A stretch of DNA of 64,000 nt. It comes from Eledone cirrhosa (Eukaryota). Positions 3,566 to 56,525 of the stretch are shown one piece after another. Both the position numbers and the translations under genes were made by a program. Under the pieces are notes generated by a model. That model made no database searches, had not been told where the DNA came from, and was given only the letters and a program-made list of their open reading frames with translations. Within the stretch, counting starts at the first letter, position 1, and each line of letters opens with the position of its first letter. The stretch covers positions 204,166,001-204,230,000 of the forward strand of contig OZ024741.1 of assembly GCA_964016885.1 (NCBI GenBank). Reading direction: 5' to 3'.

Positions 3566-3608
3566 GTCATAGTTCTTTCGTCACACACTCTGTGACCTCT
3601 TCAGTGAC
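3566..3608 (-). ncRNA. Type I hammerhead ribozyme (PLE 3' terminus)
   Basis: Minus strand: GUCA-CUGAAGA-G-GUCACA gagug UGUGAC-GAAAG aa CUA-UGAC. Confidence 0.8.
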
Positions 3609-9657: not shown

Positions 9658-9784
9658 CTCCCCTGATGATAGAATATGTTCTTCCAATATTGGTTGTTCC
9701 AATTGGTTGTTCCAATTGGTTGTTCCATTGGTTGTTTGAAATGAATAATATTGTTTCTTTTATTTTTGAAACCATGGTAGGGAG
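9658..9784 (+). ncRNA. Hammerhead motif with ~98-nt expanded stem II
   Basis: CUCCC-CUGAUGA-[9670-9767]-GAAAC caug GUA-GGGAG; perfect 5-bp stem I, palindromic stem III. Confidence 0.65.
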
Positions 9785-27599: not shown

Positions 27600-27895
27600 A
27601 ATGCGAGAAAGTTCTTCAGGAAAGTTAACCAAGAATCTTTAAAAAATCTCCCCAACTACAAGTGAAGTCATTCTTTTCCTGATGTCAACATGAATGGACC
27701 TGTTATTTTTATCTAAAGACATTTTTTCAAATTCCATCCTGCCCGTCCCCTTAATCTATCTTATTTCTCATTCTTTCTTCTGATGAAGGACTATCGTCCG
27801 AAACGTTAAGAACCTCTTCCTGCTATATCAAGCGTTAACCTAATATATCCCTTCCATATACTGTACCGATTGTGTTGTTATTTCTGTTTACCGTT
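27600..27895 (+). mobile_element. PLE 3' terminal region (homologous to 30880-31167 and 12240-12445)
   Basis: Shared ATGGACCTGTTATTTTT...CTGATGAAGGAC...GAAACGTTAAG...CTTCCATATACTGTAC. Confidence 0.8.
27775..27812 (+). ncRNA. Minimal type I hammerhead ribozyme
   Basis: UUCUU-CUGAUGA-a-GGAC uauc GUCC-GAAAC GUU-AAGAA; loopless palindromic stem III (ACGU), the dimer-dependent type. Confidence 0.85.
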
Positions 27896-31047: not shown

Positions 31048-31083
31048 TCTTCTGATGAAGGACTAGCGTCCGAAACGTTAAGA
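31048..31083 (+). ncRNA. Minimal type I hammerhead ribozyme in a PLE terminus (30880-31167)
   Basis: UCUU-CUGAUGA-a-GGAC uagc GUCC-GAAAC GUU-AAGA. Confidence 0.85.
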
Positions 31084-32014: not shown

Positions 32015-32100
<86 letters not shown>

Positions 32101-32305
32101 TATGTACACGTACATACATATATGTATACAGACGTACAGTAGTATGTATATATATATACATACATGCACACATATATATATATATGTACGTATGGATTCA
32201 CCGAACATTTATTATAATGCTCGGTGTGTTTGTAAACAAACATCCCGTATTAAGCCGTAGTGTCTAGCAACCATCGTTGCTCGTTTGTTCAACACTGACA
32301 AAGGA

Positions 32306-32348
32306 ACGCTGTACTAGTTTCAAGCTTATTAGCTATCGTCAGCAACGT
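32306..32348 (-). ncRNA. Type I hammerhead ribozyme
   Basis: ACGUUG-CUGACGA-uAGCU aaua AGCUu-GAAAC ua GUA-CAGCGU. Confidence 0.85.
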
Positions 32349-32895
32349 ATACCTTCCTGCCAGATGATTGAACGTCTGAAAGTATATACTTTCCTTATGC
32401 ACATTAACGGCTGAGCAGCCTAATTTGCATATCAAGTGGGTTAATCGGCCGGGTGCACCGAAAGCGATAAACGGAAAAAATGAAACGAAATTTCATTTCC
32501 CACGCTTAGTACGACTGTTACTTAAATATAAGTATGTATACGTACATATATATATGTATACAGACGTACAGTAGTATGTATATATATATACATATATGCA
32601 CACATATATACATGTACGTATGGATTCACCAAACATTTGTTTACAAACACACCGAGCATTATAATAAATGTTCGGTGAATCTAAACGTACATGTATATAG
32701 GTGTGCATGTATGTATATATATATAACAGTCGTACTAAGAGTGGGAAATGAAATTTCGTTTCATTTTTTCCGTTTAACGTTTTCGGTGCACCCGGCCGTT
32801 TAACCCACTTGATATGCAAATTAGGTTGCTCAGCCGTTAATGTGCATAAGGAAAGTATATACTTTCAGACGTTCAATCATCTGGCAGGAAGGTAT

Positions 32896-32946
32896 ACGTT
32901 GCTGACGATAGCTAATAAGCTTGAAACTAGTACAGTAGTACAGCGT
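32896..32946 (+). ncRNA. Type I hammerhead ribozyme (inverted copy with 8-nt duplication at the cleavage site)
   Basis: ACGTTG-CTGACGA-TAGCTAATAAGCTT-GAAAC-TAGTACAG-TAGTACAG-CGT. Confidence 0.75.
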
Positions 32947-33206
32947 TCCTTTGTCAGTGTTGAACAAACGAGCAACGATGGTTGCTAGACACTACGGCTT
33001 AATACGGGATGTTTGTTTACAAACACACCGAGCATTATAATAAATGTTTGGTGAATCCATACGTACATGTATATATGTGTGCATGTATGTATATATATAT
33101 GCATACTACTGTACGTCTGTATACATATATGTATGTACGTGTACATACTTATATTTAAGTAACAGCCGTACTAAGATTGGGAAATGAAATTTCGTTTCAT
33201 TTTTCC

Positions 33207-33241: not shown

Positions 33242-33339
<98 letters not shown>

Positions 33340-33340
<1 letters not shown>

Positions 33341-34860
33341 TGCCTATAATGCATATAAATGTAAAAAAAAAAACATGAATATACCACCAATACATCAAAC
33401 TAACCATAATACTAAAATAAACCACAGCAAACCACCATCTCATTCACATACAACAAGTCGAGAAAATTCCACACCTAATTTGACTAATTCCCCTGATATA
33501 ACATTCACGAAATGTTGTAACTGTAGAAACAAAGCAAATTGCCCGTTAAACGGAAATTGCCTTATTAATAACATAGTATATAAATGTAAAATTAACACTA
33601 AGGACTCAACTTATTCTTATATAGGAGCTACTTCTAACCAATTTAAAGTAAAATTTAATACCCACAAACAGTTTTTAAAATGCCGCATTAGCTAATACAA
33701 CATCCTTAGCTGAAATAATTAATAATTATAGAAAAAAGAATATCGATTATATCCTGACCTGGAGTGTGCTCAAAAGGGCCAGCCCTTATCAAAATAATAG
33801 GTATGAATGTAGATTATGTTCCCAGGAACTTTTTGAAATAATGAAATCTAAGGATATCCTATTAAATAAGCGACAAGAATTAATTATATCATGTAATCAT
33901 AGAATTAGAAGAACTTTTAAATATTAAAAACCTAATTAATATACACTTATATTTTATAAATTATTATAATAAATTTTTTTTTTTTTTTTTAAAATTAGTT
34001 AACCTATAATTAATATTCTACTACTAATGAACTGCATAATTTTATTTCCCTTTTACAGCTATCTTTTCCTAAAATTTATACCAATAAGTATACATATAAA
34101 CTATTTTAATTTCAGGTTATGAATCTATATTCCTTGTAATCTATATAAGTTTGTTATTTCTCACTAATACATTTATCCCCCCCCCCACATTTTTTTCCCT
34201 TCGTTTTTAACAACACTCTTTAATTACTTCTAACTCTTATTTATCATATCTATATGAATTAATATAAATTTATCCATATAAATATACCTATCAATTAAAT
34301 TAATTTATTTTTTTTTATAGATCTAAATTCCTTGTTTTAAATAAGATTGATATTTTTCACTAACACATTTATCGTAAAATTTTATTCTCCTTAGATTACA
34401 TTAACATTATTCTTTAATAACATCAAATGTTCGTGTACCTTTAACCGGCTTGACCTATTTTCATCCCCAAAGTAATATTTTCATTCAAAATACTCTTTCC
34501 ATTCAAAACTGAAGTCTGCTTTCCTCTACCCCTAAATTTAATTTCTACTACTACTATTCTATCAACTTGACCACTTACTACCTTTCTATTGGTCAATTCA
34601 AAACCTGTTCCCAAACAGACCTATTGTATTAAATCTTTGTTGGGTTTTTTTCAATAAACAAATATCATTATTTCTGAAGACAGCATATGTAGGTATGTAT
34701 ATTCCCTCTGATAGTTTGTAAAAATTTTACATAGATCTATATGATATACATACCAACGCACACATATATATCCTAGAAACGATCGTAAAATGATGAATTT
34801 TTTAATATAAAGAACTGCTTCTTTGTTTTTATTCATTATTTTTATTAATTTATATATATA
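33340..34860 (+). mobile_element. 5'-truncated Penelope-like element: GIY-YIG remnant, AT-rich 3' region and HHR terminus
   Basis: CNCRNKANCPLNGNCLINNIVYKCKI...YIGAT...FNTHK, then frameshifted CRLC...LLNKRQE...CNH; flanked by (TA)n. Confidence 0.88.
34666..34795 (+). ncRNA. Hammerhead motif with ~95-nt expanded stem II
   Basis: CAUUAUUU-CUGAAGA-[long hairpin]-GAAAC gauc GUA-AAAUGAUG. Confidence 0.7.
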
Positions 34861-34901
34861 TATATAGTTTTGCAAGAGACCGAGGTAGAGTTTTAATATT
34901 A

Positions 34902-35036
34902 ATTTTATTAAGGCTAGATAGTGAGTCTTGTTACTCTGGAGTTAGGTTATCATAGGGTCATCAGATGAGATTGTTCTTGTCTACTGATCCAGGCGAAACT
35001 GTGTTAACAAGACTCACTATTTAGCTTAAATAAAAT
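34902..35036. repeat. Short inverted repeat (~32-bp arms)
   Basis: ATTTTATTAAGGCTAGATAGTGAGTCTTGTTA / TAACAAGACTCACTATTTAGCTTAAATAAAAT. Confidence 0.75.
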
Positions 35037-35038
35037 GA

Positions 35039-35070
<32 letters not shown>

Positions 35071-35173
35071 AGAAGATGAGTAATATTGTAGAACAATAAA
35101 ACTATGCATATATCCGATAAGTAGCACTCAACAGTTGGTAGAACAGGAGTATATATTAAATATATATATATAT

Positions 35174-35260
<87 letters not shown>

Positions 35261-35418
35261 GAGGAGGTTAGTTCACTTGAAGCATTGTGTAATGAGGTAT
35301 AAACGTTTGAATATGTATAATAAAGCCAAAACAATGCAGGTATGGACATAGAAAAAAGAATGCAATTGCAAAAGATATTGTTGACAAATCGTCTTTTACC
35401 TTAGATTTATTTAAATGT

Positions 35419-35453
35419 CCTTAATTTTCGAGATAATATCTCTTCTTCAGAGG
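35419..35453 (-). ncRNA. Minimal type I hammerhead motif
   Basis: CCU-CUGAAGA-a-GAGAU auu AUCUC-GAAAA UUA-AGG; palindromic AAUU stem III, short stem I. Confidence 0.55.
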
Positions 35454-35490
35454 GAAATAAAGGTCTCAAACCAGCCTTCTAAATATCTAG

Positions 35491-35605
35491 ATACTAATAC
35501 TATCTCTAAGGATGCCGCCACGATACAAAAATTCGTACGAGCATTTATGTAGTTTGCACTAGAATTTTTGTATCGTGGCGGCACCCTTAGAGATAGTATT
35601 AGTAT
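35491..35605. repeat. Inverted repeat (~44-bp arms)
   Basis: ATACTAATACTATCTCTAAGGATGCCGCCACGATACAAAAATTC and its near-perfect reverse complement. Confidence 0.85.
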
Positions 35606-36232
35606 TCTTTTTCGGGATTCTGAATTATTATTTCGTATTAGTTTATTTTTTTTGTACTGGGTGGTTGCTGGCCTTGTGCCTGGGGTAGAAACCTTTATTT
35701 CGTACTGGTCTCGGGACTCTGAATTATTATTTCGTGGTAGTTTCTTTAGTATTTTGGCCCCCCACTTGTTGACCCGTCACCGTAAGATATACTCGGTTGA
35801 TTACTTATACCTCTTAAAAGGGTCTCATTATAATTCCGTCCCACCTAGTAAACCTTTCTTTAGTCTAGCAGTACCAGTGAGAGACTTGATAGCTGTCCTT
35901 AGGTTATAGTAACCAGAAATTGTTTTTTTTTTTACATTTAATTGTTTTTTAACACTCTTGGTATTTTTCTATATATTTACCCCATATTGTTTTACTTATT
36001 GTTTCGACTTCCTCCCCCTCGCCCTCCCTAGTATCATCTTTGACCTCCTGCCCAACTGTAGTTGGCACTATCAACGCACGACTTGGTTTCCTCCACCCCC
36101 CTCTCCCTCTTTCTTCTACTGGCAGGTTCAGCTACCCCTTCCCTCCACAAATTGCCATGATAGAATTATTATGTCTCAACAACAAACTTTTGACCAATCC
36201 TTGTGACAATCACTTTTACCATATATGGAATT

Positions 36233-36328
36233 ACCCCCTGAGAAGCTCGGCTATTCATATACCAGGATAAAAATGTTCATTTAGTCCAGAATTAGCCGTC
36301 GAAACGGCTTGAGCTCAGCCGTCGGGGT
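36233..36328 (+). ncRNA. Hammerhead-like motif with altered core (CUGAGAA) and long stems II and III
   Basis: ACCCC-CUGAGAA-...CGGCUA-UUC...GAAUUAGCCG-uc-GAAACGGCU ugagcuc AGCCGUC-GGGGU. Confidence 0.55.
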
Positions 36329-36501
36329 CCTACTCGTTCCTATTACCCACTCTACTACCCTAAGTATTGAGTACTTTGGTGCGTTATGGTCCACCTGGTT
36401 CCTTACCACATTTCCTTCGTTATATATATATATATATATAAATTATTAAAAAAATAATGAATAAACAAAGAAACAGTTCCTTATATTAAACAAAAAAAGT
36501 T

Positions 36502-36640
36502 CATTATTTTACGATCGTTTCTAGGACATATATGTGTTAGAATTGGTATGCATATTCAAAAGATCTATGTACAAAATTATACAAACTATCAGAGGGAATA
36601 TACATACCTTCACATATATATGCTGTCTTCAGAAATAATG
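36502..36640 (-). ncRNA. Hammerhead motif with 104-nt expanded stem II (antisense copy)
   Basis: Reverse complement of 37289-37427. Confidence 0.7.
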
Positions 36641-37288
36641 ATGCTTGTTTATTGATAATAACAACAATTCAATACAATAGGTCTGTTTGGGAACAGATTT
36701 TGAATAGACCAATGAAATAGAGATTGAGATACATAAAAATCTATCAAGAAAATACAGTTAGGTGTGTATATATGTATGTAAATACGCTCACAGATGTGCA
36801 TAAATGTGTATGCTCATATGTATACGTATAGTGAAAAAGTGTATGTAAATATAAAATTTAGGGCTAATGTATCTGTATGTCTGTAATCAACAGACGGAAT
36901 AGATACATCATAAGTATATGAATATTGAGGCGCTCACATAAACACGCCCACACACACTTACATTTAGATGCGGAAGTAAAAGAGGTAAGGGAGTATAGTA
37001 ATTAAAGGAAAGTGTCAATCTCGACATACTTATAAAAATGTATCAATAAATTAGAAATAAAAATTTTTTTATATAGAAGGAAAAAACTCAAGAAAAGAAG
37101 ACAAAAAAAAAACAAAAAAAAAGACAAAAAAATGAGGGGGTGGTACATATATACACAGACACGCATGTCTCACAAAAGAAACATAAAAAAATATAAAAGA
37201 GAGACATAAAGTGTCATTGGTCTATTCAAAATCTGTTCCCAAACAGACCTATTGTATTGAATTGTTGTTATTATCAATAAACAAGCAT

Positions 37289-37427
37289 CATTATTTCTGA
37301 AGACAGCATATATATGTGAAGGTATGTATATTCCCTCTGATAGTTTGTATAATTTTGTACATAGATCTTTTGAATATGCATACCAATTCTAACACATATA
37401 TGTCCTAGAAACGATCGTAAAATAATG
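37289..37427 (+). ncRNA. Hammerhead motif with 104-nt expanded stem II
   Basis: CAUUAUUU-CUGAAGA-[37304-37407]-GAAAC gauc GUA-AAAUAAUG; perfect 8-bp stem I. Confidence 0.72.
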
Positions 37428-37622
37428 AACTTTTTTTGTTTAATATAAGGAACTGTTTCTTTGTTTATTCATTATTTTTTTAATAATTTATCTTGACTCT
37501 GTTTTCCGTTTATCTTTCACCGAAAGTGATTTTTGAATGCATCTCTTCTTTTCATGATATCCGGATTACATTGAGTTCTTCATACGGATTGGACACTACC
37601 GTAAACTTTTGGTAGATTTATC

Positions 37623-37700
<78 letters not shown>

Positions 37701-37920
37701 GAATTGGTGCTTTGAAATAGCGATATATATATGAATGTATATATAGTGTATTTTGCAATACACTGTATGCTTAATTAAAAGCATTTTGAAGACTTTACGC
37801 TATTGTTTTAGAGTAGTGACAGTCTCACTTCCTTTAAATTTTCAGCAAACAGGGGAGATAAAGCTGACAGAGCTCTGTTTCGTACTTTTTGGTACTTATC
37901 AAAGCTAAGTACTCCACATG

Positions 37921-38531
37921 TAAGTATGTATGTATACGTACATACATATATGTATACAGACGTACAGTAGTATGTATATATATACAAACATGCACACATA
38001 TATATATGTACGTATGGGTTTACCGAACATTTATTATAATGTTCGGTTTGTTTGTAAACAAACAAACAGCCCGAATTACGCCGTACAGTGTTCAGGCAAC
38101 CATCGTCGCCTTTTTGTTCAACACTGACACAGGAACGATGTACTAGTTTCAAGCTTATTAGCTATCGTCAGCATCGTATACCATCCTGCCAGATGATTGA
38201 ACGTCTGAAAGTATATACTTTCTTTATGCATATTAACGGCTGAGCAGCCTAATTTGTATATCGAGTGAGTTAGTCGGCCGGGCGCACCGAAAACGATAAA
38301 TGGAAAAGAATGAAACGAAATTTCATTTCTCACTCTTAGTACGGCTGATACTTAAATATATGTATGTATACGTACATACATATATGTATACAGACGTACA
38401 GTAGCATGTATATATATATATACATACATGCACACACATATATATGTACGTATGGGTTTACCGAACATTTATTATAATGTTCGGTTTGTTTGTAAACAAA
38501 CAAACAGCCCGAATTACGCCGTACAGTGTTC
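37921..38531 (-). mobile_element. Second locus of the ~433-nt HHR unit (about 1.4 head-to-tail copies)
   Basis: GACGTACAGTAG at 37959 and 38393 (period 434); diverged homologue of 32098-32630. Confidence 0.85.
38135..38177 (-). ncRNA. Type I hammerhead ribozyme
   Basis: ACGAUG-CUGACGA-uAGCU aaua AGCUu-GAAAC ua GUA-CAUCGU; perfect 6-bp stem I. Confidence 0.85.
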
Positions 38532-38535
38532 ATAA

Positions 38536-56482: not shown

Positions 56483-56525
56483 GTCAAAGTTCTTTCGTCA
56501 CACATTCTGTGACCTCTTCAGTGAC
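56483..56525 (-). ncRNA. Type I hammerhead ribozyme
   Basis: GUCA-CUGAAGA-G-GUCACA gaaug UGUGAC-GAAAG aa CUU-UGAC. Confidence 0.8.

What the first reader, a model, noticed from the sequence alone, without database searches (positions are those of the whole stretch)
34666..37427. PLE hammerhead family whose stem II is a ~100-nt rod
Seen: three copies (34666-34795 +, 36502-36640 -, 37289-37427 +) have CUGAAGA and GAAAC-gauc-GUA closed by an 8-bp stem I. The two core halves are separated by 95-104 nt that fold back (CAUAUAU(A)UGUG/CACAUAUAUG; GGUAUGUAUAUUC/GAAUAUGCAUACC). The diverged copy keeps the core and stem I (A-U to G.U). One copy lies at the 3' end of a GIY-YIG remnant. Known: PLE HHRs are typically minimal, with short stem II. 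Inference: descriptor searches with short length limits would miss this class, and the insert might be a protein-binding or regulatory module.
Basis: partly seen in the sequence, partly recalled or inferred. Interest (0 to 1): 0.75.

Follow-up and report, generated by a model that had tools for sequence, protein, structure and literature searches.

The report
Giant-armed hammerhead heading Penelope retrotransposon RNA
These are end-pieces of a known kind of jumping gene whose predicted self-cutting RNA has one arm stretched to about 100 bases, a fold kept by paired changes across thousands of copies; the arm likely forms the start of the element's transcript and likely carries its own control signals, while a second hairpin is predicted to switch the cutting off.

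Summary
The motif is real but overcounted: copies 2 and 3 are the identical arms of one inverted insertion, and copy 1 ends a truncated insertion of a sister subfamily. The host is a young Hydra-clade Penelope-like element. Published Hydra hammerheads have at most 26 nt between the core halves; here 99-116 nt is the norm. The invariant tip of the arm occurs 15,117 times in the genome (control 0). Across 13 subfamily consensuses (53-94% alike), stem I and the base of stem II are kept by paired changes. One lineage swapped C3-G8 for U3-A8, and 20 of 21 apical bases never change. So core and arm are under selection. Also seen: truncated copies pile up 7 nt before the core (likely transcription start); a downstream 10-bp helix competes for stem I (130 of 130 cells pair); a splice-donor-like site sits at +32 to +34 in all 13. 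Against the simple reading: stem II opens with a C.A mismatch, few copies begin at the cut site, and cleavage, splicing and binding are untested. The scan has reported long-armed hammerheads many times before, in this genome and others. Verdict: a new variant of a known kind.

The parts
33340..34855 (+). 5'-truncated Hydra-clade PLE insertion, subfamily B (endonuclease remnant + ~740-nt 3' UTR + hammerhead), between (TA)n tracts
   Evidence: blastn: 1,543 nt at 94% to L060 and similar to a dozen other copies; flanks
33339..33936 (+). GIY-YIG endonuclease remnant (CxCX5C linker, IVY-YIG, CxxC, CxH), one frame break near 33670-33680
   Evidence: tblastn to the open ORF of L033, 56% and 84%; ORF list
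34666..34795 (+). Hammerhead copy 1, 95-nt stem II insert with a 6-nt deletion in the basal helix
36438..37210 (-). Left, inverted arm of one head-to-head insertion of subfamily A1 (3' UTR end + hammerhead copy 2 at 36502-36640)
37214..37620 (+). Right arm: begins 83 nt before C3 and runs through copy 3 to the long 3' end (~200 nt past the cut site) at a (TA)n tract
37288..37296 (+). Stem I 5' strand; A37290 is the predicted transcription start (+1, initiator-like TCATT), 7 nt before C3
   Evidence: stem I covariation; 5'-end pile-up; start inferred
37297..37303 (+). Core 5' half CUGAAGA (C3-A9)
   Evidence: U3-A8 variant in the E subfamilies
37304..37407 (+). 104-nt stem II rod: C.A, 2 bp, C.C, ~11-bp basal helix, ~13-bp middle helix, apical module
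37322..37327 (+). Splice-donor-like GTATGT at +33 (GTATGT, GTAAGT or GTAGGT at +32 to +34 in 13 of 13 consensuses); use not shown
37338..37367 (+). Invariant apical module TGATA-N-TTTGT ... TACATAGATC (predicted 3-bp + 4-bp stems around a 4x3 internal loop)
   Evidence: 20 of 21 positions invariant in 13 consensuses; 15,117 genome matches, control 0
37408..37419 (+). Core 3' half GAAAC-GAUC-GUA with a palindromic 2-bp stem III; predicted cut after A37419
   Evidence: monomer hairpin +2.4 kcal/mol vs intermolecular duplex -10.0
37420..37429 (+). Stem I 3' strand, also the 5' strand of the competitor helix
37468..37477 (+). Downstream TTCATTATTT block predicted to capture the stem I 3' strand (ribozyme-off helix), just before the short 3' end at ~37491
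   Evidence: 130 of 130 cells paired in 13 consensuses

Best explanation
The motif is a type I hammerhead in the pseudo-LTR of a young Hydra-clade Penelope-like retrotransposon, with a ~100-nt stem II kept by paired changes; it likely starts the element's transcript, is predicted to cut only as a dimer or with protein help, and is predicted to be switched off in the RNA that gets copied. Steps. SHOWN: host element and position (2 kb after the ORF stop, ~350 nt before the next ATG); selection on stem I, the stem II base and the 3-8 core pair; an invariant apical module. INFERRED: transcription starts 7 nt before the core, so any downstream promoter element or 5'-UTR intron signal must be written inside stem II, which is my favoured reason for its length. 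A donor-like site lies at +32 to +34 in every subfamily and DPE-like bases at +28 in the D and E lineages. INFERRED: the invariant apical internal loop is a protein-binding site, most likely for the element's own RT-endonuclease. PREDICTED: once ~60 nt past the cut site are transcribed, a 10-bp competitor helix strips stem I. The uncut RNA is then reverse-transcribed from one of two internal sites (~+70 and ~+200 past the cut) back to its 5' end, giving the thousands of short, often head-to-head copies such as 36438-37620.
For: Host: open frames of 680-781 aa next to the motif with DKT, CNCRNKANC, CRLC and CNH, the Hydra signatures listed in PMC8557442 section 11. Selection: stem I 115 of 117 cells paired, 4 pairs with double changes; stem II base 116 of 117, 7 of 9 pairs with double changes; slid registers 26-71 of 117; 0 of 5,000 shuffles as high. 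The tool's own count on 13 real copies gives 96.1% paired, 0 of 500 shuffles. The basal helix has three unrelated sequences in three lineages. U3-A8 core with the same rod: 1,341 matches, control 29; 10 of 10 E copies found without asking for that core carry TTGACAA. All 13 inserts fold better than shuffles, z -2.5 to -8.6. 5' ends: 33 of 90 truncated intact-core copies end at -7, or 17 of 57 after removing 26 rows from hand-picked pairs and 7 copies sharing one fusion; contig pieces of a second organism also begin at that base. Competitor helix: 130 of 130 cells pair; probability 0.74-1.00 vs 0.00 for stem I in RNA from -7 to +72. Two 3' ends: 81 short and 45 long of 145 copies. Precedents read: TSS, internal promoter, DPE and 5'-UTR intron in the Penelope pLTR (PMC2377424, PMC8557442); protein-assisted hammerhead and uncut template in PAc (PMC11167929).
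Against: No cleavage, RNA, splicing or binding data. Stem II opens with C.A in 12 of 13 consensuses instead of the usual G10.1-C11.1, which may slow the ribozyme. In subfamilies A, B, D and K, even RNA cut short before the competitor forms stem I with probability 0.01-0.32 (the energy model ignores hammerhead tertiary contacts and dimers). Copies that begin at the cut site are scarce: about 20 clear of 70 pattern hits against 10 of 13 for a control 4-5 nt upstream, no clear excess. No spliced junction among 38 tested 20-mers in the loci held. The donor-to-branch distance for the internal acceptor is only 18-24 nt. DPE-like bases are poor in subfamilies A and B. The apical module is invariant, so covariation cannot show that it acts as RNA rather than DNA. 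The 13 consensuses fall into about three lineages, and I kept only copies with the stem II base pattern and part of the apical motif (176 distinct copies, 169 in the 13 groups), so they are neither independent nor an unbiased sample.
Confidence: 0.6

Rival explanations
1. The long arm is mainly the element's 5'-UTR spliceosomal intron placed inside stem II: donor at +32 to +34, acceptor at the invariant TACATAG (42-54 nt) or at the YAG whose G is core base G12 (82-98 nt). Splicing would remodel or destroy the ribozyme in the mRNA while unspliced RNA keeps it.
For: Donor-like hexamer in 13 of 13 at +32 to +34 (background 0.0064 per position in the window); a T/C/A-TGAT branch-like word and TACATAG invariant; terminal YAG in 13 of 13, which would explain the odd A11.1. 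Penelope and Chlamys-3 carry a 5'-UTR intron in the pLTR and PLEs keep introns in their copies. In D. virilis the intron end abuts the hammerhead.
Against: No spliced junction in genomic loci (0 of 38 tested) or in contigs, although retention is expected. The short intron has a very short donor-branch distance. The signals lie in paired regions. An unrelated family has C.A without YAG. GTATGT is common in this microsatellite-rich genome, and the test was post hoc.
Confidence: 0.3
2. The invariant module is a DNA element of the internal promoter (a bipartite factor site at about +48 to +80); the RNA rod merely tolerates it.
For: Position 48-56 nt after the inferred start in all subfamilies; no covariation inside it; the Penelope promoter and tissue-specific elements lie downstream of the start.
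Against: The two halves are complementary over 7 pairs and are separated by 6-20 variable bases that extend the pairing, including one double change and a 10-nt duplication. A fixed-phase DNA site would not be expected to allow this.
Confidence: 0.2
3. The core no longer cleaves. It is a structural or recognition element, and the whole fold is kept for RNP assembly.
For: C.A at 10.1-11.1, a strong competitor helix and no clear footprint of cut templates; PAc insertion in vitro did not need cleavage.
Against: Only catalytically tolerated positions vary (N7; H17 = A or U) and the C3-G8 to U3-A8 swap is compensatory. Mismatched stem II bases occur in tested hammerheads: U.U in axolotl HHR_Amex2 cleaves, and C.A is listed for PLE-X1_cBra but not tested there.
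Confidence: 0.2
4. The length of stem II is neutral: microsatellite-like sequence accumulated in a tolerant loop and hitch-hiked with successful masters.
For: AT-rich, TA-repeat-like helices; unrelated families in the same genome have other long inserts of 40-102 nt; subfamily K gained a duplication without harm.
Against: 20 of 21 apical bases are invariant against 1 of 52 in the 5' flank, the core-to-module distance is held at 34-40 nt on both strands, and the basal helix is fully compensated. Short-insert derivatives appear only as scattered deletions and formed no subfamily among the 136 listed hits.
Confidence: 0.07

Closest known systems
Hydra-clade PLE hammerheads (Craig et al. 2021, PMC8557442; passages, section 11 and supplement part 2 with File S2 read)
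   Same: Type I topology near the element's 3' end, 2-4-bp palindromic stem III, frequent mismatch at the first stem II position (U.U), (TA)n targets, inverted 5'-truncated copies, DKT and CxCX5C protein motifs.
   Different: Published rows have stem II of 3-7 bp and loops of 3-10 nt (at most 26 nt between core halves); here 99-116 nt with an invariant apical module. The 3' UTR is 0.5-2 kb.
Minimal PLE hammerheads (Cervera and de la Pena 2014, PMC4209133; parts 1-3 of 4 read, supplement not read)
   Same: pLTR location, dimer-type stem III, U3-A8 core variant, opposite-strand pairs 100-700 bp apart.
   Different: Their helix II is 6-8 bp with G10.1-C11.1 and a short helix I; here stem I is 9 bp, there is no G10.1-C11.1, and the arm is several times longer.
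PAc Poseidon element (Frangieh et al. 2024, PMC11167929; parts 1-2 of 4 read)
   Same: Two internal RT start sites downstream of the hammerhead that give an optional tail; uncut RNA is the main template; the ribozyme needs protein.
   Different: The PAc hammerhead overlaps the start codon, and no long arm is described in the parts read. Here the cut is ~350 nt before the ATG and the tail is ~130 nt.
D. virilis Penelope pLTR (Schostak et al. 2008, PMC2377424; passages read)
   Same: Start site inside the pLTR, internal promoter with a DPE (RGACGTGY; subfamily D has AGACGT at +28), 5'-UTR intron beginning shortly after the start.
   Different: There the intron ends at helix I of the hammerhead; here the donor-like site is inside stem II, and neither start nor intron is shown by RNA data.
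Animal non-LTR retrozymes (PMC7229834 passages and section 15; bioRxiv 10.64898/2026.07.22.740005 part 1 of 5 and passages)
   Same: Type I hammerheads with weak stem III that cleave better as dimers.
   Different: These copies belong to protein-coding elements and are not tandem non-coding monomers.

Membership tests
Type I hammerhead ribozyme | Core C3-U4-G5-A6-N7-G8-A9 / G12-A13-A14-A15.1 / U16.1-H17 | tested here: met
   All three window copies; compensatory U3-A8 in the E lineage
Type I hammerhead ribozyme | Stem I formed by the two ends | tested here: met
   115 of 117 cells paired, 4 pairs with double changes
Type I hammerhead ribozyme | Stem II closed next to the core by G10.1-C11.1 | tested here: not met
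   C.A in 12 of 13, then 2 bp, a pyrimidine mismatch and a long helix. This pair is typical, not obligatory: U.U forms cleave and C.A is listed once in File S2
Type I hammerhead ribozyme | Stem III (A15.1-U16.1), or a palindrome that allows the dimer | tested here: met
   8-nt palindrome; monomer +2.4, duplex -10.0 kcal/mol
Type I hammerhead ribozyme | Site-specific self-cleavage after H17 | not testable with these tools
   No assay possible; genomic 5'-end footprint at the cut inconclusive
Type I hammerhead ribozyme | Stem I-stem II tertiary contact | not tested
   The conserved pyrimidine mismatch at stem II position 4 is a candidate only
Rfam hammerhead models | Match to a hammerhead covariance model | tested here: not met
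   None on the three copies among the 150 of 188 hits listed; none on 4 loci holding long-arm copies
Hydra-clade PLE | Single ORF, RT followed by C-terminal GIY-YIG | tested here: met
   Open frames of 680-781 aa with YRDD and IVY-YIG; start MEKQ found in other copies
Hydra-clade PLE | DKT, CxCX5C linker, CxxC and CxH, no CCHH | tested here: met
   DKT, CNCRNKANC, CRLC, CNH; no CxxC inside the GIY-YIG core
Hydra-clade PLE | N-terminal RWK motif | tested here: inconclusive
   RRVRWRA, with R in place of K
Hydra-clade PLE | (TA)n targets, inverted 5'-truncated copies, tail at one end | tested here: met
Hydra-clade PLE | Placement in the RT phylogeny | not tested
   No tree built; Pfam gave no RT or GIY-YIG hit
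Non-LTR retrozyme | Non-coding tandem monomers of 150-450 nt | tested here: not met
   The motif is joined to a coding element in subfamilies A, B, B2-B4, K, E1 and E4
Spliceosomal intron | Donor, branch point and acceptor that are used in RNA | tested here: inconclusive
   Signals present in 13 of 13; no spliced junction found in DNA; no RNA available

The most novel reading that the evidence does not exclude
A switchable, intron-bearing hammerhead. The element's transcript begins inside the ribozyme, and its 5'-UTR intron and an RT-docking loop are built into a 100-nt stem II. Splicing, a 10-bp anti-stem-I helix and protein-driven dimer cleavage then sort each RNA into mRNA, transposition template or cut product. 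Such arms would be a large ribozyme class (over 13,000 intact-core copies in this genome) invisible to standard searches.
Probability: 0.2. Interest if true: 0.8.

Novelty: new variant of a known kind. Interest (0 to 1): 0.5.

Why it matters
What hammerheads do in Penelope-like elements is an open question (PMC8557442 calls it unclear; PAc inserts without cleavage in vitro). This family gives a testable layout: a likely start site 7 nt before the core, a conserved competing helix next to the RT start, and a 20-base invariant loop. It also shows that length-capped descriptors and Rfam miss most hammerheads of this type here: 5,746 of 5,882 GUA-type matches have 69 nt or more between the core halves.

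Tried and rejected
No RNA holder listed for the region. Contigs of four runs cover the motif in two coded organisms but cannot show ends or expression, and no joint at splice-like sites was listed. Footprint of cleavage in genomic 5' ends: a first hint (4 ORF-bearing copies starting within ~11 nt after the cut) was not confirmed by the targeted pattern and its control. Of the first 30 of 70 hits, 8 were clear truncations, 9 were microhomology joins to the inverted arm and 13 were small indels. Non-templated G as a cap mark: G precedes 10 of 33 ends at -7, but several come from the inverted arm, so it is not used. Kink-turn reading of the apical module: rejected by eye, because the C-stem does not pair in subfamilies A, B or K. 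Metagenome scan for the apical module: 34 hits, 0 with both core halves at the expected distance. Pfam found no domain in the ORF. The RNAalifold-based model R1 missed the basal helix because of a 5-nt alignment shift and was used only to confirm that the window has three copies. A truncated related element (L067) had no hammerhead end to compare. Literature: six searches on hammerheads, one on the Penelope promoter and one on octopus repeats found no report of a natural PLE hammerhead with a ~100-nt stem II. 'Long helix II' in PMC13725137 means 6 bp (passages), and PMC13282606 does not mention ribozymes (passages). PMC3088659 was read as passages. Lunse et al. 2017 and Hammann et al. 2012 are not held and were not seen. 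The supplements of PMC4209133 and PMC11167929 and of the bioRxiv preprint were not read and could hold long-stem examples.
Full report
OBSERVATION. The three motifs are at the stated coordinates, and a covariance model built from relatives finds exactly these three strong matches in the window. Each has CUGAAGA, a 95- or 104-nt insert, GAAAC-GAUC-GUA and a closing stem I. For core plus insert, copy 3 folds with z -4.96 and copy 1 with z -2.65. Copies 2 and 3 are not independent: they lie in the identical 278-nt arms of one inverted repeat. Copy 1 ends a 1.5-kb 5'-truncated insertion that starts in the endonuclease remnant. It belongs to a sister subfamily about 83% alike and lacks 6 nt of the basal helix. 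Rfam listed no hammerhead on them (150 of 188 hits shown).

HOST ELEMENT. The 278-nt arm has at least 40 copies at 99-100% identity (best 40 of 1,486 candidates scored), so the family is young. [quoted passage not shown] The protein has DKT, CxCX5C, CxxC and CxH and no CCHH. These are the Hydra-clade signatures of Craig et al.; no tree was built. The hammerhead lies ~2 kb after the stop codon and, in copies that run on, 353 nt before the ATG. It is therefore in the pseudo-LTR. Copies end at two places past the cut site: ~+70 (81 of 145) and ~+200 (45 of 145); 10 run on into the ORF and 9 were unclassified. This matches the two internal RT starts described for PAc.

HOW UNUSUAL. File S2 of Craig et al. 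lists 26 Hydra rows with stem II of 3-7 bp and loops of 3-10 nt; the longest non-Hydra exception has a 34-nt loop. In this genome, CTGANGA-N-GAAACGATCGTA occurs 50, 86, 1,019 and 4,727 times for N = 8-38, 39-68, 69-98 and 99-128 (controls 1 each). Part of the 69-98 bin is subfamily E matched through an inner look-alike word. The GUU/GUC form adds 7,208 (N 90-119, control 9) and the U3-A8 form 1,341 (control 29). These counts cover one stem III sequence only; short hammerheads with other stem III sequences exist, several in this window.

SELECTION ON THE FOLD. I clustered 176 distinct copies that had an intact core, the stem II base pattern and at least part of the apical motif. From 169 of them I built 13 subfamily consensuses, 53-94% alike and falling into about three lineages, A/B/K, D and E. 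Of 274 distinct 3' cores held at that point, 85 had neither half of the apical motif; those shown were deletion derivatives or unrelated families. Anchored on the core, stem I pairs in 115 of 117 cells with 4 double changes. Stem II positions 2, 3 and 5-11 pair in 116 of 117 cells with 7 double changes. Slid registers give 26-71, and none of 5,000 shuffles reaches the observed values (relatedness inflates the shuffle test). The basal helix reads ATATATA, GGGTAGG and TGATGAT in the three lineages, each with its complement. The tool count on 13 real copies agrees for stem I. Position 1 is C.A in 12 of 13 and position 4 is C.C or C.U in 13 of 13. The E lineage has U3-A8, the compensatory core variant described by Cervera and de la Pena, on the same rod. 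Ten of ten E copies found without asking for it have TTGACAA. Core invariance as such is partly circular, because most copies were found by core patterns; the rod was not in those patterns. The apical module TGATA-N-TTTGT...TACATAGATC is invariant at 20 of 21 positions, against 9 of 34 and 6 of 40 in the rest of the rod, 1 of 52 in the 5' flank and 20 of 64 in the 3' flank. It sits 34-40 nt from the core on both strands. It occurs 15,117 times, control 0.

WHERE THE RNA STARTS. Head-to-head pairs often meet just before the core. Among 204 intact-core copies, 114 continue upstream and 90 do not; 33 of the 90 stop exactly 7 nt before C3, at the A of TCATT. After removing 26 rows from pairs I had picked for short gaps and 7 copies that share one fusion, 17 of 57 remain at -7. 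Contig pieces from a second coded organism also begin at this base. I infer a transcription start at -7; the lead came from earlier notes of this scan. Since such copies contain the whole ribozyme, their template was uncut. A direct search for copies starting at the cut gave 70 hits, about 20 of them clear truncations by their listed ends (8 of the 30 inspected). A control window 4-5 nt upstream gave 10 of 13. There is no clear excess, which counts against cut RNA being a common template.

AN OFF-SWITCH. A block TTCATT(A/G)TTT 38-58 nt past the cut is complementary to the 3' strand of stem I in all 13 consensuses: 130 of 130 cells pair, mostly through G.U absorption of changes, with one U-A / U.G / C-G series. 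In RNA from -7 to +72 this helix has probability 0.74-1.00 and stem I 0.00. With 40 nt of upstream sequence, A1 and D2 switch away from it while the other 11 keep it at 0.75 or more. The monomer stem III is unstable (+2.4 kcal/mol) and the intermolecular duplex is -10.0. The model has no tertiary terms, so these are predictions.

WHY THE ARM IS LONG. If the start is at -7, positions +15 to about +120 are stem II, so downstream promoter and intron signals must lie inside it. A donor-like hexamer is at +32 to +34 in 13 of 13 consensuses (GTATGT in A/B/K and D, GTAAGT in E2-E4, GTAGGT in E1; background 0.0064 per position). Subfamily D has AGACGT at +28, like the Penelope DPE RGACGTGY; E has (A/G)CATGT, which fits a looser DPE consensus recalled from memory; A and B fit poorly. 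Candidate acceptors are the invariant TACATAG and the terminal YAG ending at G12. No spliced junction was found in the loci held (0 of 38), but PLE copies retain introns. The apical module could be a protein site on RNA or a promoter site on DNA. Its complementarity across a 6-20-nt variable spacer favours RNA. None of this is shown by RNA data.

VERDICT. It works like a dimer-type PLE hammerhead and meets the sequence and structure tests for type I, except the usual G10.1-C11.1 pair; cleavage is untested. The long, selected arm is not in the papers I could search, but this scan has reported the class many times. It is a new variant of a known kind. My added points are the competitor helix, the donor-like site and the failed cut-site footprint; a word search of earlier notes for the intron reading returned nothing. 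Interest 0.5.

Noticed in passing
window 37386, 37398, 37400 (run X4): A-to-G differences in the rod's 3' strand at 15-28% of contig depth in run X4 against 0.04% or less in run X1; genomic copies have G at 37398 in 1 of 147 and at 37400 in 0 of 147. It would fit A-to-I editing of the rod, but X4 is not on record as RNA and is another sample, so it is only a lead.
   Followed up: partly
window 37268-37281 and homologues: AATAAA lies 5-8 nt before the inferred start in 12 of 13 consensuses: a possible poly(A) signal of the upstream unit that would cut inside the 5' part of the hammerhead.
   Followed up: no
L146-L151, L233, L234, L253, L254; L099, L106, L116, L124; L228-L232: At least three unrelated families carry other long stem II inserts (95-nt two-hairpin, 63-nt rod, 92-102-nt rod); two share the pyrimidine mismatch at stem II position 4.
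   Followed up: partly
window 27780-27807, 31052-31079, 32312-32342, 32902-32932, 38141-38171, 3570-3604, 56487-56521, 9663-9779: Other hammerhead-like motifs in the window: seven with 13-18-nt inserts and one with a 98-nt insert of short tandem repeats.
   Followed up: no
window 37844-37919 (-): Weak Rfam HH9 hit (E 0.032); by eye a short U3-A8 hammerhead with a 4-bp stem II and a long palindromic stem III.
   Followed up: no
window 34905-35032: Very stable hairpin (-53.6 kcal/mol) with a 3' half-core GAAAC-TGT-GTT and a decayed 5' half: probably a worn long-arm hammerhead of another family.
   Followed up: partly
L038, L163, L169-L172, L181: Seven subfamily-B/A2 copies share one upstream repeat end fused exactly at -7, suggesting a chimeric subfamily driven by a captured promoter.
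   Followed up: no
L360, L362, L369, L370, L384, L386: Inverted junctions join the cut-site side of one arm to the core of the other through the self-complementary stem I; 13 of the 70 hits end this way.
   Followed up: partly
window 32091-33204 and 37871-38532: Another repeat family in nested inverted and direct copies, carrying the 14-nt-insert hammerhead.
   Followed up: no
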